Assembly (NCBI GenBank): GCA_041665005.1
Contig: JBAYJR010000002.1
Coordinates: 25,120 to 89,119 of the forward strand
Origin: Candidatus Buchananbacteria bacterium
GTDB taxonomy: Bacteria; Patescibacteriota; Patescibacteriia; 2-01-FULL-39-33; JBAYJR01
Reading direction: 5' to 3'
Length of the DNA: 64,000 bases
The position numbers and the translations under genes were made by a program. Under the pieces are notes generated by a model that ran no database searches, was not told the origin of the DNA, and saw nothing but the letters and a program-made list of their open reading frames with translations. This document shows, in pieces, positions 4,273 to 49,351 of the stretch (its first letter is position 1; each line of letters opens with the position of its first letter).

Positions 4273-5847
4273 ATGTCTAATACCTTATATCGTAAATATC
4301 GTCCGCAAACCTGGTCCGAAATGATCGGGCAAAATCACATTAAAGTGACCTTGCAGCACGAATTAGAAACCGATAAGTTGGCGCACGCTTACTTATTTTG
4401 TGGTCCGCGCGGATTGGGTAAAACCACCGCGGCCCGGTTGTTGGCTAAATCTTTAAATTGTACCAATCGCGGCCAAGGTAAAAGTGAACCTTGCAACGAA
4501 TGCAAGGCATGTCAGGAAATTATGGCCGGCCACGCCATTGATTTGATAGAAATTGATGCCGCTTCACAAACCGGAGTGGATAACGTGCGGGAAAATATTA
4601 TTCAAAATTCTCGCTTTACACCTAACGTTGGAAAATATAAAGTTTTTATCATTGACGAAGTGCATATGTTGTCCACTTCGTCTTTTAATGCCCTGTTAAA
4701 AACTTTAGAAGAACCTCCGGCCCATGCGATTTTTATTCTATGCACCACCGAGGTACATAAAATTCCCGAAACGATTATTTCTCGTTGTCAACGTTTTGAT
4801 TTTAAAAGAGTTAGCCAGGGTGATCTGGTTAAGTTGTTAGAAAAGATTTGTGTTCAGGAAAATCGTGAAGTGCAAACCTCGGTGCTACAAGAAATTGTCC
4901 GGCAGTCCGATGGTTGTGTACGCGACGCCGAAACTTTACTCGGTAAAATTTTATCACTAGAAGGAAAAATTACCAAAGAGGTGGCGGAAATAATTTTACC
5001 GCATTCAGATTTTAATTTAGTCATAGAATTGTTGCAAAATTTAACGGCCAACCAAACCGTGCCCGCTTTATTTTTAGTTAATCGTTTAGTGGAAGAAGGT
5101 TTAGATCTGACTAGTTTTGCTCAAGATGTTATTGAAATTTTACGTAAAATTTTACTAATTAAAAATAGTGGAGAGTTAGGAGATTTGGCTGGTGAGTTTG
5201 ATCCCGAAACCGAAAAAGAATTAGTAAAAATTTCAGATATTTTAACTTTAGGACAAATCGTGGAATGGTTGAATATTTTTATTAATTTAAAACAAGAATT
5301 ACGTTATAGTCAAATTGCGCAATTGCCCTTAGAGTTAGCCGTAGTTAAGCTGACTTCTGGGGTAACCGAACCAAACAAAGCAATTACTCCCGTAGCCAGT
5401 AAGCCGGCTGAGATTAAAAAAAAGACTAATCCGGAACCGGCTAAAGCCACCCCGGAGCCAGTTTTGAGTGAAGAGGTTGAAGTCACTAAAGGCGCGAAAG
5501 CCAAACTTTGTTTAGCGACCATCAAGGAAGAGTGGCTTAATTTGTTAAATAATATTTTAGAGCGCAATTATCCTTTGGCCGCCTTGCTAAAAACTTCTGA
5601 GCCGTTAAAATTTAGTGATAATTGTTTAGAAGTGGGGATAAAGTATCAATTTTACGCTGATCGCTTGCATGATCGCAAGCATCAACAAATTTTAAATGAG
5701 GCCACTAAAGCAGTTTTTGGCTCCGCTATCAACTTTAGAGGGATAATTAAGGCCGAAATTACTCCTTATGGTCAAGAGGAGGTGCGACCAGTTGATAATT
5801 TAGCCAGCCAAGTATTAGAAGTAATGGGCGGGGAAGTAGTAGAATAA
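4273..5847 (+). CDS. dnaX: DNA polymerase III subunit gamma/tau
   Basis: N-terminus YRPQTWSEMIGQNH, Walker A GPRGLGKTT, the Zn-binding CNECKAC box and IIDEVHML are all textbook DnaX motifs. Confidence 0.95.
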   Translation: MSNTLYRKYRPQTWSEMIGQNHIKVTLQHELETDKLAHAYLFCGPRGLGKTTAARLLAKSLNCTNRGQGKSEPCNECKACQEIMAGHAIDLIEIDAASQTGVDNVRENIIQNSRFTPNVGKYKVFIIDEVHMLSTSSFNALLKTLEEPPAHAIFILCTTEVHKIPETIISRCQRFDFKRVSQGDLVKLLEKICVQENREVQTSVLQEIVRQSDGCVRDAETLLGKILSLEGKITKEVAEIILPHSDFNLVIELLQNLTANQTVPALFLVNRLVEEGLDLTSFAQDVIEILRKILLIKNSGELGDLAGEFDPETEKELVKISDILTLGQIVEWLNIFINLKQELRYSQIAQLPLELAVVKLTSGVTEPNKAITPVASKPAEIKKKTNPEPAKATPEPVLSEEVEVTKGAKAKLCLATIKEEWLNLLNNILERNYPLAALLKTSEPLKFSDNCLEVGIKYQFYADRLHDRKHQQILNEATKAVFGSAINFRGIIKAEITPYGQEEVRPVDNLASQVLEVMGGEVVE

Positions 5848-5872
5848 AAAAAGACCCAAAGGGGTCTTTTAT
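5846..5872. terminator. bidirectional rho-independent terminator
   Basis: aaaaaaagacccaaaggggtctttt: a perfect hairpin flanked by an A-run and a T-run, sitting between convergent genes. Confidence 0.7.
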
Positions 5873-6162
5873 GGTTTTGCTTTTTCGGTTACGGTCACTT
5901 CGGAGACCATTTTTATTAGTAGGCCTCGCTTAACCGCACCAGTCATGTCTTTACGAAAAGTAGGCAAGAGTTTCTTTCTAAAACTCTCTATCTCTTCTCG
6001 TGTAAACTTTTTAAAGTAATGAGTTGTTTTTCCGCAACTTATTCTTTCTTCTACAGTTTTTAGACAAGCGGTATTTAAAACGCAGGACCAATAAATCGCT
6101 TGACCATTTTGGTCTTGCCCTAATTCTGGCATTGGGACAAAATATGGACAGTTTTCTGCCAT
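5869..6162 (-). CDS. hypothetical Cys-containing small protein (97 aa)
   Basis: Minus-strand ORF with RBS aaggagg 7 nt upstream and a TTGACA-N17-TAAGCT promoter at about 6195..6225 on the minus strand. Four Cys residues. Confidence 0.5.
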   Translation of the reverse strand: MAENCPYFVPMPELGQDQNGQAIYWSCVLNTACLKTVEERISCGKTTHYFKKFTREEIESFRKKLLPTFRKDMTGAVKRGLLIKMVSEVTVTEKAKP

Positions 6163-6326
6163 AATAGCCTCCTTTTTAGATGATGTGTTTATAGCTTAGT
6201 CCTATTAAAAGCGCTTGTCAAGACCAAAAAAAGGTGATAGAATATAGCATTATTTGATTGATCGTTTAATAATTTATCTTTTGCTTAGCTGGCCAGCTTA
6301 TTTGCTTAAATGCTAATTTGCTTATT

Positions 6327-6349
6327 TTTATTGGGAGATCGTCTAATGG
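6327..6349 (+). repeat. 23-bp direct repeat, copy 1 (tttattgggagatcgtctaatgg), identical to 6657..6679
   Basis: Exact 23/23 match. Copy 2 is the 5' flank plus the first 18 nt of tRNA-Gln. Confidence 0.85.
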
Positions 6350-6400
6350 GAGTCGCCTCATCGGCGACCCGCCGAAAAGGCGGGGACAAATTAAATAATT

Positions 6401-6655
6401 ATGTGGTACGTTTACGTTTTACAAAGTTTAAAAAATAAGCGATTATATACAGGATTAACTGGTGATTTAAAAAGAAGATTTGGTGAACATAACGCAAAGC
6501 AGGGTGGAAAGTATACTAGCAAAGTAGCTCCATTTAAGCTAATATATTATGAGGCTTATTTAAATAAGCCTGATGCCAGTGCCGCGGAGAAGTTTTATAA
6601 AAGCGGATACGGCAGAGAAGTGTTTAAAGAGAAGGTAAAAAGTTATCTAAATTAA
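6401..6655 (+). CDS. GIY-YIG nuclease family protein (UPF0213/YhbQ-like)
   Basis: YVYVLQS...LYTGLTGDLKRRFGEHN is the GIY-YIG catalytic core. Confidence 0.85.
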   Translation: MWYVYVLQSLKNKRLYTGLTGDLKRRFGEHNAKQGGKYTSKVAPFKLIYYEAYLNKPDASAAEKFYKSGYGREVFKEKVKSYLN

Positions 6656-6661
6656 ATTTAT

Positions 6662-6735
6662 TGGGAGATCGTCTAATGGTAGGACGCCGCGCTCTGGACG
6701 CGGTAATTCTGGTTCGACTCCAGGTCTCCCAGCCA
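6662..6735 (+). tRNA. tRNA-Gln (anticodon CUG), CCA encoded
   Basis: Manual fold. Acceptor stem UGGGAGA/UCUCCCA with the U1-A72 pair and G73 discriminator characteristic of bacterial tRNA-Gln. D stem GUCU/GGAC. Anticodon stem CCGCG/CGCGG with loop CUCUGGA, giving anticodon CUG. T stem UCUGG/CCAGG with loop UUCGACU. 3' end CCA. Confidence 0.85.
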
Positions 6736-6745
6736 ATAGTCTAGA

Positions 6746-7231
6746 ATGTTTTTTATTAATATGATTAATCAACAACAACTTTGCGAATTTTTAGTTAAAG
6801 CGAAAAAAGTCACTTACGCGGCTGGGGCCGGAGCGCAAACTATAAACGAAAGTGACAAATCAAAAACTTTAAATTTTACGGAAGGCGATTGGCACTATCA
6901 GGATAATTATTTTGGTGGCGAACCGTTCGGTGGTCGGGAAGTAGTATTTTTTAAAAATCAGCCAGTGTATTTAATGGTTTATTATGGTCGGGTCGAAGAG
7001 GTAGTTACAGATTTTGAACCAGTCTATCAGATTTTACGCCAAGCCTTGTCTTTAATACCAGACGCTCAGCCGTTTCGTGGGCCGGCGCAATATCAAACTG
7101 GCGATTATGTTTATATTAATAATTATCAGGGTGAAGTGGATAATTTTTTTGGTGAGGAAAAAATTAGTTATCAGGGAGCGGTAGTTTATCAAGCCCGCTA
7201 CGCCGGCGGCTTAGTTGACCAGAAAAAATAA
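6746..7231 (+). CDS. hypothetical protein; its last ~45 nt plus the downstream spacer are duplicated at 13235..13286
   Basis: 161-aa ORF with no recognised motif. The 3' end is part of the 52-bp repeat. Confidence 0.5.
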   Translation: MFFINMINQQQLCEFLVKAKKVTYAAGAGAQTINESDKSKTLNFTEGDWHYQDNYFGGEPFGGREVVFFKNQPVYLMVYYGRVEEVVTDFEPVYQILRQALSLIPDAQPFRGPAQYQTGDYVYINNYQGEVDNFFGEEKISYQGAVVYQARYAGGLVDQKK

Positions 7232-48889: not shown

Positions 48890-49351
48890 TTATCCAAGTA
48901 AACCGATAAGCCGAATTCTGTCAGCCTAATTAAAGGCGGGTGATTATCTCTCTAGCCCCAACATTGCTGTTGGAGTCATGCTGCCTACCTTATTTGGCAT
49001 TGCACCGGGTAGGTGTTTTCCACGGCTGTCATCACTGACAGTCCCGCGTGGGCTCTTACTTTGGCCTAGCCGAAGCTTGGCTTATCCCGCGCATAGGCGG
49101 GCCCACGATTTCAACCTTACTTGTCCCACCATCGGTGGGATTTAGTCCACAAGGGACTCAAGCGGTATATTTTCTGTTGCACTTTCCCTGGGCTTGAAAT
49201 TTGCAGAAGTCTGCAGGACTTCTATAAACTTTGCTCCCGGTCGCTGTTAGCGATTACCTCTGAATTCCAATCCTAAGATTGAAAAACGGTGTTCGGACTT
49301 TCCTCAATGCGCTTTAACACGCACCGCAATCACCTGGTTTACTTGGATAAA
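48889..49351 (-). ncRNA. rnpB: RNase P RNA (bacterial type)
   Basis: On the minus strand, GAGGAAAGUCCGAACACC near the 5' end is the universally conserved P4 5' strand, and ACAGAAUUCGGCUUAUCGG near the 3' end is the P4 3' strand. The P1 stem pairs UAUCCAAGUAAACC with GGUUUACUUGGAUA. The region is GC-rich relative to its surroundings and has no ORF. A TTGACT-N17-TATGCT promoter lies at 49355..49383 on the minus strand. Confidence 0.85.

What the first reader, a model, noticed from the sequence alone, without database searches (positions are those of the whole stretch)
6327..6735. GIY-YIG nuclease gene bracketed by 23-bp direct repeats that duplicate the 5' end of tRNA-Gln: a possible miniature mobile element at a tRNA target
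tttattgggagatcgtctaatgg occurs at 6327..6349 and 6657..6679. The second copy is the first 18 nt of tRNA-Gln(CUG) through the D-loop GG, plus 5 nt of upstream flank. Between the copies lie only two short hairpins (gtcgcc..ggcgac and cccgcc..ggcggg) and an 84-aa GIY-YIG nuclease ORF. A 330-bp insertion that recreates the 5' part of a tRNA is what a target-site duplication by a homing-type GIY-YIG element would leave. A + strand promoter TTGTCA-N17-TAGAAT at 6215..6243 would transcribe through both the nuclease and the tRNA.
Basis: seen in the sequence. Interest (0 to 1): 0.6.

Follow-up and report, generated by a model that had tools for sequence, protein, structure and literature searches.

The report
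Tiny nuclease gene parasitising a tRNA gene
An 84-amino-acid GIY-YIG nuclease gene with a 32-base double hairpin sits just upstream of a glutamine tRNA gene and is flanked by a duplicated tRNA 5' end, and it belongs to a very large, apparently undescribed family of small selfish elements that live next to tRNA genes in ultra-small (CPR) bacteria.

Summary

The "mobile element at a tRNA target" idea is supported by comparative data:
- 63 of 95 non-redundant homologues lie within 250 nt of a tRNA gene, always on the same strand, beside about 30 different tRNA species.
- 28 of 46 carry an exact copy of at least 12 nt of their own tRNA's 5' end upstream of the ORF.
- The closest relative has an identical tRNA-Gln at the same dnaX-linked locus with no element.
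- Tandem arrays, and remnants that have lost the ORF, also exist.

The repeat is not a simple target-site duplication. The upstream copy is a pseudo-tRNA covering nt -10 to about 24. It is split exactly between D-loop nt 21 and 22 by a 32-nt double hairpin. That hairpin is itself a dispersed repeat, also found inside protein-coding genes.

The protein is only a catalytic domain, closest to UPF0213 and Slx1.

Best model: a homing-type cassette analogous to phage SegB. It would use tRNA homology to spread and the tRNA promoter for expression. The mechanism is inferred, not shown. I rate it a new variant of a known kind.

The parts
6215..6243 (+). Sigma-70-like promoter match TTGTCA-17-TAGAAT (TG-extended). 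It is the likely start of a transcript covering the pseudo-tRNA, the hairpins, the ORF and the tRNA.
   Evidence: 10 of 12 consensus positions. No terminator-like site lies between it and the tRNA. This is a consensus match only.
6322..6352 (+). Pseudo-tRNA-Gln 5' copy: about 10 nt of leader plus tRNA nt 1-21. The exact 23-nt core is 6327-6349, and there is one mismatch at nt 19.
   Evidence: The same feature recurs in 28 of 46 related loci.
6353..6384 (+). 32-nt GC-rich double hairpin (DH), TCGCC-TCATC-GGCGA-C-CCGCC-GAAAA-GGCGG-G, inserted between nt 21 and 22 of the pseudo-tRNA D loop.
   Evidence: Folds. It is unique in the window. The Gln clade shows the same 32-nt insert after nt 21. It is a dispersed repeat in metagenomes.
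6385..6387 (+). GAC, where the pseudo-tRNA resumes (nt 22-24) after the double hairpin.
   Evidence: Three nt alone would be weak evidence, but relatives resume for 4-8 tRNA-specific nt at the same place.
6401..6655 (+). 84-aa stand-alone GIY-YIG nuclease gene, consisting of the catalytic domain only.
   Evidence: Pfam PF01541, E=4.7e-18. Profile hit to UPF0213 BH0048 (1zg2), E=3.5e-14. AF2 model pLDDT 88.6, with best folds 1zg2 and Slx1 at TM 0.68-0.71. Y16, G18, H30, E51 and E63 are invariant, and Y5 and R26 are at least 90% conserved.
6652..6682 (+). Second copy of the 31-nt repeat. It spans the ORF stop codon, a 6-nt spacer and nt 1-21 of the intact tRNA.
6662..6735 (+). Intact tRNA-Gln(CUG) with an encoded CCA end.
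   Evidence: ARAGORN. (Rfam tRNA, 58.4 bits). All 74 nt are identical to the tRNA at the element-free locus L091.
4273..5847 (+). dnaX, the conserved upstream neighbour of this tRNA-Gln locus. It serves as context and as the synteny anchor.

Best explanation
What it is. A compact selfish cassette has colonised the 5' side of the tRNA-Gln(CUG) gene that lies downstream of dnaX. It consists of an 84-aa stand-alone GIY-YIG nuclease gene preceded by a 32-nt double hairpin.

Shown here:
- The first ~24 nt of the tRNA, plus about 10 nt of leader, are present twice. One copy is an upstream dead copy split by the hairpin between D-loop nt 21 and 22. The other is part of the intact gene 6 nt after the ORF stop.
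- This layout is the stereotyped layout of a clade of homologues at tRNA-Gln genes.
- The wider family (thousands of sequence clusters) abuts tRNA genes on the same strand.
- Close relatives of the host lack the element.
- Tandem copies, and remnants that have lost the ORF, occur in other genomes.

Inferred:
1. The nuclease breaks a tRNA gene, or a DNA structure formed there. The cassette is then copied in by recombinational repair. The pseudo-5' copy would act as the left homology arm and the intact tRNA as the right arm, so each homing event would reproduce the whole structure and always leave a working tRNA.
2. Rare illegitimate events move the cassette to other tRNA species.
3. The ORF has no promoter of its own. 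It would be read from the tRNA promoter at 6215-6243, and RNase P cleavage at the tRNA 5' end would release the mRNA.
4. The hairpin gives the mRNA a structured 5' end. In several relatives it also places a G-rich, Shine-Dalgarno-like stretch 6-8 nt before the ATG.
5. The direct repeats allow both tandem amplification and clean loss.
For: - tRNA association: 54 of 104 hits are less than 400 nt upstream of a same-strand tRNA. Among non-redundant genes, 63 of 95 are within 250 nt of a same-strand tRNA and none is near an opposite-strand tRNA.
- Matching repeats: an exact copy of at least 12 nt of the locus's own tRNA 5' end lies upstream of the ORF in 28 of 46 loci. The control using the tRNA 3' half gives 1 of 46.
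- Stereotyped anatomy in the Gln clade: the repeat runs to nt 21, a 32-nt insert follows, the tRNA resumes to nt 25-27, and the ATG follows 1-40 nt later.
- Element-free orthologous loci: L091 has dnaX, a small ORF and an identical tRNA-Gln(CUG). L093 has dnaX, 12 nt and then the tRNA.
- Patchy distribution: hosts with DnaX 35-46% identical to the window's carry the gene, while hosts at 49-56% do not. The nuclease itself is 73-74% identical between hosts whose DnaX is 43-45% identical.
- Target-linked clades, with switches to Pro, Glu and Gly nested inside the Gln clade.
- Tandem units that are 100% identical in L013 and L149, three diverged family members around one tRNA-Ser in L030, and an ORF-less unit in L143.
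- ORF-less remnants consisting of a pseudo-5' fragment, the double hairpin and a complete tRNA.
- The nuclease motif residues are conserved and the fold model is confident.
- Precedent: phage SegB is a GIY-YIG homing endonuclease that cuts inside tRNA genes, is widely tRNA-associated, and drives tandem amplification of tRNA-plus-segB units through microhomology with the tRNA 5' end (PMC2330249, PMC13096335).
Against: - No cleavage activity or target has been shown.
- The protein has no DNA-binding domain, unlike characterised GIY-YIG homing endonucleases. Its fold is nearer Slx1 and UPF0213, which are structure-specific or of unknown function, than I-TevI.
- The intact tRNA downstream still carries any tRNA-internal target, so it is unclear how the element's own locus escapes cutting.
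- L091 is not an isogenic empty site. Its DnaX is only 56% identical and the intergenic flanks do not align.
- After switches to new tRNA species, the pseudo-copy and the bases beyond the hairpin are those of the new tRNA (L004, L027). That requires a fresh duplication and a fresh hairpin insertion, which simple homing does not explain.
- Thirty-two of 95 family genes have no tRNA within 250 nt.
- Transcription, RNase P processing and the ribosome-binding role of the hairpin are untested. In this window the hairpin ends 16 nt before the ATG, which is too far for that role.
Confidence: 0.6

Rival explanations
1. REPtron-like system. The 32-nt double hairpin would be the primary mobile unit, a hairpin MITE. 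The adjacent 84-aa GIY-YIG protein would be its structure-specific nickase or transposase. The tRNA D loop (GGTAG|G) would simply be a favoured, neutral landing site next to the gene. This partly overlaps with the best explanation.
For: The hairpin is dispersed. At least 119 metagenome stretches match it. Of 85 instances, 58 have neither a GIY-YIG gene nor a tRNA nearby. Of the 43 not at a contig end, 19 lie inside frames that stay open for at least 120 codons. The flank consensus is (T/A)AG|DH|(A/G)A over 106 instances. Hairpin subfamilies track nuclease clades, for example the 30-nt variant in the Ser clade, and keep pairing through compensatory changes. L027 has two separate hairpin-pair insertions in one pseudo-tRNA. 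The fold is closest to Slx1, a nuclease for branched and hairpin DNA.
Against: There is no test linking hairpin copy number to the presence of the gene in a genome. No target duplication or excision footprint was seen. This window has a single hairpin. The model does not by itself explain the tRNA 5' duplication or the strict co-orientation with tRNAs.
Confidence: 0.2
2. A transposon-like insertion would make staggered cuts about 23 bp apart in the tRNA gene. Fill-in repair would then leave the 23-nt repeat as a true target-site duplication.
For: Each repeat matches the local tRNA, even after switches to Pro, Glu and Gly, as a duplication generated at the target would. In the Gln clade the repeat is usually 21-26 nt.
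Against: The repeat ranges from 11 to 34 nt with a variable left edge. The duplicated tRNA sequence continues beyond the hairpin to nt 24-41, so the hairpin lies inside the repeat and not at its edge. The junction with the ORF is not fixed. No transposase class is known to make duplications of this length.
Confidence: 0.1
3. Host gene, not a parasite. A conserved UPF0213/YhbQ-type nuclease would be co-transcribed with tRNAs for a tRNA- or DNA-repair-related function. The repeat would be an old local duplication or a regulatory leader.
For: The nearest solved relatives are UPF0213 proteins of unknown function. The ORF is intact and conserved. dnaX-GIY-tRNA-Gln recurs in at least 7 lineages.
Against: It is absent from the four closest relatives at the same locus. 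It sits beside about 30 different tRNA species on either side. Repeats that are exact or nearly so and specific to each tRNA, identical tandem copies and decayed remnants are hallmarks of selfish elements.
Confidence: 0.05
4. Attachment-site duplication from integrase-type site-specific recombination at a tRNA gene, or a tRNA group I intron carrying a homing endonuclease.
For: tRNA genes are classic integration sites and intron sites. Direct repeats of tRNA sequence flank integrated islands.
Against: There is no integrase in or near the 330 bp. The repeat is the tRNA 5' end, not the 3' end. Rfam finds only the tRNA and no intron. The downstream tRNA is complete rather than a 3' exon.
Confidence: 0.02

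Closest known systems
SegB, the free-standing GIY-YIG homing endonuclease of phages T4/T6 (PMC2330249, PMC13096335)
   Same: It is a GIY-YIG nuclease gene embedded among tRNA genes. SegB cuts inside tRNA genes by recognising a universal tRNA motif. It is statistically associated with tRNAs across phages. It produces tandem repeats of tRNA-plus-nuclease units via microhomology with the tRNA 5' end, which resembles the identical tandem units seen in L013 and L149.
   Different: SegB is longer: the phage study reports a 28-aa C-terminal truncation of it, and by my recollection it has about 220 aa with a DNA-binding part. It lives in phage genomes and uses the T-loop motif. Here the protein is 84 aa with a catalytic domain only. 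It is chromosomal in CPR and other bacteria, and the junctions are in the D loop or anticodon region. There is a stereotyped pseudo-tRNA plus double hairpin. Only weak similarity to phage proteins was found.
UPF0213 / COG2827 small GIY-YIG proteins (BH0048 1zg2, EF2693 1ywl; E. coli YhbQ) and the Slx1 nuclease domain
   Same: These are the best sequence and fold matches: E=3.5e-14 to 1zg2 and TM 0.68-0.71 to Slx1. They have the same size class and are a single domain.
   Different: No NCBIfam model reaches its cut-off. To my knowledge, no tRNA linkage or mobility has been described for YhbQ-type proteins. Slx1 needs Slx4.
REP elements and their RAYT transposases (REPtrons) (PMC3733652)
   Same: Both involve short GC-rich hairpin repeats dispersed in genomes, including inside genes, with a dedicated enzyme gene flanked by the repeat. 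In tRNA contexts the hairpin follows GTAG.
   Different: The enzyme here is GIY-YIG, not an HUH/Y1 transposase. GTAG is not a constant tag: the flanks are TAG in 42 and AAG in 30 of 106 instances. The unit is a double hairpin.
Mitochondrial GC clusters and double-hairpin elements of fungi (PMC4478555 and papers cited there)
   Same: Both are GC-rich hairpin elements in AT-rich genomes that insert after AG. They are tolerated in coding regions, and endonucleases are suspected of mobilising them.
   Different: These are a different lineage with different sequences, and the mechanism is unproven there too. No tRNA 5' duplication is involved.
Insertion sequences in CPR rRNA genes that encode GIY-YIG proteins (PMC11270868)
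   Same: Same host group. These are GIY-YIG ORFs inserted in structured-RNA genes and not inside recognisable introns, often at stem-loop tips.
   Different: That study covers rRNA genes only and does not mention tRNA. I did not test whether its proteins belong to this family.
Free-standing endonuclease ORFs that carry a duplicate of part of the invaded gene (for example Allomyces atp6-ORF360; from my own recollection, not checked here)
   Same: The insertion keeps the host gene working by duplicating the displaced part, leaving a pseudo-fragment next to the ORF.
   Different: In those cases the target is a protein-coding gene and the duplicated part is the 3' end.

Membership tests
GIY-YIG nuclease superfamily | GIY-YIG domain with conserved Tyr...Tyr-x-Gly, Arg, His/Tyr and Glu residues and an alpha/beta fold | tested here: met
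   Pfam PF01541, E=4.7e-18. Y16, G18, H30, E51 and E63 are invariant, and Y5 and R26 are at least 90% conserved, in 26 homologues. The AF2 model (pLDDT 88.6) matches 1zg2, Slx1, I-TevI and UvrC domains.
UPF0213 / COG2827 (YhbQ-like) | Sequence membership in the curated family | tested here: inconclusive
   It is the closest solved relative (1zg2, E=3.5e-14), but no NCBIfam model passes its cut-off. I treat it as a related subfamily.
Homing endonuclease gene (free-standing, SegB/Seg type) | Presence/absence polymorphism at an otherwise conserved target locus | tested here: met
   L091 and L093 have dnaX followed by tRNA-Gln(CUG) without the gene, and the L091 tRNA is identical. The distribution is patchy relative to DnaX identity. 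Caveat: the nearest host is only 56% identical in DnaX.
Homing endonuclease gene (free-standing, SegB/Seg type) | Site-specific cleavage of the allele that lacks the gene | not testable with these tools
   This needs an in vitro cleavage assay.
Homing endonuclease gene (free-standing, SegB/Seg type) | Catalytic domain tethered to a DNA-binding domain that gives specificity | tested here: not met
   The 84 aa are all covered by the GIY-YIG domain (residues 1-72 of the Pfam match plus two short helices).
DNA transposon with target-site duplication | Fixed-length duplication directly abutting the element ends, plus a transposase | tested here: not met
   The repeat ranges from 11 to 34 nt, its left edge from -11 to +22, and the duplicated sequence continues past the hairpin.
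REPtron (REP + RAYT) | HUH/Y1 transposase gene flanked by GTAG-tagged REPs | tested here: not met
   The enzyme is GIY-YIG. The flank is (T/A)AG, and GTAG appears only where the tRNA D loop supplies it.
tRNA-targeted integrative element | Integrase gene, and att repeats made of the tRNA 3' end | tested here: not met
   There is no recombinase among the neighbouring ORFs. The repeat is the tRNA 5' end. No 3' fragment exists elsewhere in the window.
Group I intron in a tRNA gene | Ribozyme core, with the tRNA split into 5' and 3' exons | tested here: not met
   At E<=10, Rfam finds the tRNA and five weak chance-level matches far below threshold, none to an intron family. The downstream tRNA is complete.

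The most novel reading that the evidence does not exclude
The 84-aa GIY-YIG protein would be the mobilising enzyme of a previously unrecognised class of bacterial hairpin transposon. It would be the smallest known transposase-like protein, working as a structure-specific nickase on a 32-nt double hairpin. The element would copy itself into loops of tRNA genes and into protein-coding genes without breaking their reading frames across CPR bacteria. The tRNA-linked gene copies would be the autonomous 'master' elements.
Probability: 0.2. Interest if true: 0.85.

Novelty: new variant of a known kind. Interest (0 to 1): 0.66.

Why it matters
If the model is right, it has four consequences:
- tRNA genes of CPR and other uncultured bacteria host a very large, overlooked population of minimal selfish elements. 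The profile search found 5,476 clusters (50% identity) at E<=1e-10. Each element is little more than a nuclease catalytic domain.
- It would extend the SegB-tRNA relationship from phages to bacterial chromosomes.
- It would explain the pseudo-tRNA fragments and GC-rich hairpins that clutter tRNA loci, and the 11-residue inserts (VASSATRRKGG) seen in CPR proteins.
- It would offer a tractable system for asking how a domain-only GIY-YIG nuclease achieves target choice, which is relevant to nuclease engineering.

On the practical side, annotation pipelines currently label these genes "GIY-YIG nuclease family protein" and sometimes extend the ORF through the hairpin.

Tried and rejected
- An exact 46-nt scan of metagenome contigs with the 3' part of the window's tRNA found nothing. 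Empty sites were instead found through DnaX homologues.
- The first look-up of the ORF, which included its stop codon, found no contig. The look-up with P0001 worked.
- Rfam on 5800-7000 gives only the tRNA above threshold.
- PHROGs gives no match. NCBIfam gives nothing above cut-off. Phage genomes give only hits of 43% identity or less. There is therefore no sign of phage origin.
- The intergenic flanks of the window and L091 do not align, and the small minus-strand ORFs there are not homologous. L091 is an orthologous locus, not an isogenic empty site.
- The 175-nt insert of L092 has no Rfam match and no significant fold.
- The MAFFT alignment of hairpin variants (A2) misaligns the subfamilies with 3-4-nt loops. 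I therefore did not run the pair-count tool and rely on listed compensatory stem variants.
- I considered and rejected a split or permuted tRNA, a tRNA intron, integrase att sites, and an RNA-guide role for the pseudo-tRNA. I found no evidence for a guide role, and the protein seems too small for one.
- The literature searches I ran found no description of this arrangement in the held library. That is not proof that none exists.

Full report
**1. The observation**

The window is a stretch of a 118-kb contig of a Candidatus Buchananbacteria (CPR/Patescibacteria) MAG. The 23-mer TTTATTGGGAGATCGTCTAATGG occurs only at 6327-6349 and 6657-6679, with none expected by chance. The repeat extends to 31 nt at 90% identity.

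- tRNA-Gln(CUG) lies at 6662-6735.
- The ORF at 6401-6655 is an 84-aa GIY-YIG domain protein.
- Two GC-rich hairpins lie at 6352-6384 and fold as described.
- A TG-extended TTGTCA-17-TAGAAT promoter match lies at 6215-6243. No terminator-like site lies between it and the tRNA.

**2. Refined anatomy**

Read against the intact tRNA, the upstream copy is longer than 23 nt. About 10 nt of leader and tRNA nt 1-21 are present, with one mismatch at nt 19. A 32-nt double hairpin (DH, 6353-6384) follows, and then GAC (tRNA nt 22-24). Thirteen nt later comes the ATG.

The locus is therefore: promoter, pseudo-tRNA (nt -10 to 24, with the DH between nt 21 and 22), ORF, a 6-nt spacer, and the intact tRNA.

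**3. Relatives**

Homologues of the protein at 63-76% identity in other CPR lineages all sit directly upstream of a same-strand tRNA: Gln(UUG), Gln(CUG), Pro(GGG) or Glu(UUC). I then scanned one genome per species, which gave 583 confirmed matches, and kept 80 loci.

- 54 of 104 gene copies are less than 400 nt upstream of a same-strand tRNA.
- After removing redundancy, 63 of 95 lie within 250 nt of a same-strand tRNA. Of these, 35 have the ORF 5' of the tRNA, 21 have it 3' of the tRNA, and 7 have a tRNA on both sides. None is near an opposite-strand tRNA.
- In 28 of 46 non-redundant 5'-type loci, an exact copy of at least 12 nt of that locus's own tRNA 5' end lies upstream of the ORF. The control using the tRNA 3' half gives 1 of 46.
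- In the Gln clade the layout is stereotyped. The repeat runs to nt 21, a 32-nt DH follows, the tRNA resumes to nt 25-27, and the ATG follows 1-40 nt later.
- A Ser clade has a 30-nt hairpin variant after nt 12-13.
- In His, Val and Phe loci the pseudo-copy reaches the anticodon arm.
- tRNA-Lys loci show the mirror image: tRNA, then ORF, then a copy of tRNA nt 32-74.
- A profile search finds 5,476 clusters (50% identity) at E<=1e-10, mostly 85-130 aa long.

**4. Evidence for mobility**

- Empty loci. DnaX homologues led to the nearest available relatives. L091 (DnaX 56% identical) has dnaX, a small ORF and a tRNA-Gln(CUG) whose 74 nt are identical to the window's, with no nuclease gene, no hairpin and a single 5' end. 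L093 has dnaX, 12 nt and then the tRNA.
- Patchiness. Lineages with DnaX 35-46% identical to the window's carry the gene between dnaX and tRNA-Gln, while lineages at 49-56% do not. The nuclease is 73-74% identical where DnaX is 43-45% identical.
- Target switching. In a neighbour-joining tree the clades follow the tRNA target, with Pro, Glu and Gly loci nested in the Gln clade. The tree rests on about 85 aligned positions, so its resolution is low.
- Repeated and nested insertions. L030 has three diverged family members around one tRNA-Ser. L013 and L149 have two 100%-identical tandem units of 360 and 338 bp. In L143 the second unit has lost the ORF.
- Decay products. Several loci keep only a pseudo-5' fragment, the DH and a complete tRNA. 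In some, such as L152 and L146, the fragment comes from a different tRNA. L092 has a 29-nt 5' repeat around a 175-nt non-coding insert.

**5. The double hairpin is a repeat in its own right**

A metagenome scan with its consensus returned at least 119 stretches. The 85 instances I read break down as follows:

| Context | Instances |
|---|---|
| Followed within about 10-36 nt by a family ORF | 17 |
| Pseudo-tRNA fragment directly before a complete tRNA, with no ORF | 10 |
| Neither (16 of these are cut short by a contig end) | 58 |

Of the 58 with neither, 43 are not at a contig end. Nineteen of these lie inside frames that stay open for at least 120 codons, most often reading VASSATRRKGG within Lys/Glu-rich stretches.

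- The flank consensus is (T/A)AG|DH|(A/G)A over 106 instances. The tRNA D loop GGTAG|GAC fits it.
- Stems vary between subfamilies while keeping their pairing. Hairpin 1 appears as TCGCC, TCAGCC, TCCGCC or TCGGCC. Hairpin 2 appears as CCGCC, CCTCC, TTGCC, GCGCC, GTGCC or CAGCC.
- In this window the DH is unique.
- After switches to new tRNAs, the bases beyond the DH are those of the new tRNA (L004, L027, L102, L125). The DH is therefore inserted inside the pseudo-copy and is not a fixed end of the cassette.

**6. The protein**

It is a bare catalytic domain. The GIY-YIG motif residues are conserved. The closest solved relatives are the UPF0213 proteins BH0048 and EF2693 and the Slx1 nuclease domain. 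I-TevI and UvrC are more distant. There is no DNA-binding extension.

**7. How it most likely works**

The structure, the family-wide tRNA linkage, the matching repeats, the empty loci, the tandem arrays and the remnants are shown. The mechanism is inferred.

I favour a homing-type cycle. A nuclease-made break in a cognate tRNA gene would be repaired from a filled locus. The pseudo-5' copy would pair with the left end and the intact tRNA with the right end. This would recreate pseudo-copy, hairpin, ORF and intact tRNA in one step and would explain the stereotyped Gln-clade layout. Rare illegitimate events would found new tRNA targets. Recombination between the repeats would give tandem arrays or clean loss, as shown experimentally for SegB (PMC13096335).

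Strict co-orientation with the tRNA, together with the 6-nt gap before it, suggests expression by read-through from the tRNA promoter and release of the mRNA by RNase P. An RNase P RNA gene is present in the window.

The hairpin may stabilise the mRNA 5' end. In several relatives its G-rich 3' arm sits 6-8 nt before the ATG, though not in this window.

Open problems are how an 84-aa domain finds its target, why the intact tRNA is not re-cut, and how a fresh duplication plus hairpin arises at new targets. The Slx1-like fold and the dispersed hairpin keep alive a REPtron-like alternative in which the protein acts on hairpin DNA.

**8. Comparison with known systems and novelty**

- The nearest described system is phage SegB. 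It is a GIY-YIG homing endonuclease that recognises a universal tRNA motif, is tRNA-associated across phages, and amplifies tRNA-plus-nuclease units (PMC2330249, PMC13096335).
- GIY-YIG ORFs have been noted in non-intron insertions of CPR rRNA genes (PMC11270868).
- Hairpin repeats with a dedicated enzyme are known as REP/RAYT (PMC3733652).
- GC clusters inserting at AG are known in yeast mitochondria (PMC4478555).

I found no description of small chromosomal GIY-YIG genes bracketed by partial tRNA duplications, or of this double hairpin, in the searchable library.

I classify the finding as a new variant of a known kind, namely a free-standing, tRNA-targeting GIY-YIG selfish element. It has unusual features: minimal size, a pseudo-tRNA arm and an associated hairpin repeat. 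Interest is 0.66.

Noticed in passing
L112, L113, L118, L129, L166, L171, L172, L174 (positions listed): The 32/33-nt double hairpin lies inside long ORFs without breaking the frame. It usually adds VASSATRRKGG within Lys/Glu-rich stretches, and other frames give SPHRRPAEEAG or RLLGDPPERRE. This resembles the palindromic elements found inside Rickettsia genes.
   Followed up: partly
L092:4750-4960: A 29-nt repeat (leader plus tRNA-Gln nt 1-18) brackets a 175-nt GC-rich non-coding insert at the same D-loop position, with no GIY-YIG ORF. The insert has no Rfam match and its fold is not significant.
   Followed up: partly
L095:4630-4920; also L102 and L125: A complete tRNA is nested inside a degenerate copy of the same tRNA. 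The 5' half, with hairpins, lies upstream and the 3' half about 80 nt downstream. The inserted block is bounded by short inverted repeats (cccgcccgc/gcgggcggg in L095, ccccgcacc/ggtgcgggg in L125).
   Followed up: no
L041, L042, L054, L059, L062, L073, L077, L081: A separate clade of the family sits 75-125 nt downstream of tRNA-Ser or tRNA-Asp. It follows a conserved leader that begins CGTAA right after the CCA end and contains two long AT-rich hairpins. This is a different structured module from the GC-rich double hairpin.
   Followed up: no
L066, L068, L072: At tRNA-Lys genes the ORF starts 0-2 nt after the tRNA, and a 24-43-nt copy of tRNA nt 32-74 follows the ORF. This is the mirror image of the arrangement in the window.
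   Followed up: partly
L013:2405-3146; L149:12126-12829: Two perfectly identical tandem units (360 and 338 bp) of pseudo-tRNA, hairpins and ORF lie before one tRNA. This is reminiscent of SegB-driven segmental amplification.
   Followed up: partly
L026 (2.3-kb contig): Two diverged family members lie on one short contig. One is 5' of tRNA-Asn on one strand and the other is 5' of tRNA-Gln(CUG) on the other strand.
   Followed up: no
window 6662-6735 versus L091 2961-3034: The tRNA-Gln(CUG) genes are 100% identical over 74 nt, although DnaX is only 56% identical and the flanks do not align. This could reflect ordinary tRNA conservation or co-transfer of the tRNA.
   Followed up: no
window 48891-49345 (-): A bacterial class A RNase P RNA spans 455 nt against a 367-position model, which suggests lineage-specific insertions.
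   Followed up: no
P0163 (655 aa), P0164 (214 aa), P0176 (205 aa); P0024: Some database proteins contain two family domains or N-terminal extensions. In P0024 the extension (VVASTATRRRGGDK) is simply the translated double hairpin, so gene callers are reading through the element.
   Followed up: no
window 5849-5870: A bidirectional terminator-like hairpin lies between dnaX and the convergent 97-aa ORF, which has no Pfam match.
   Followed up: no
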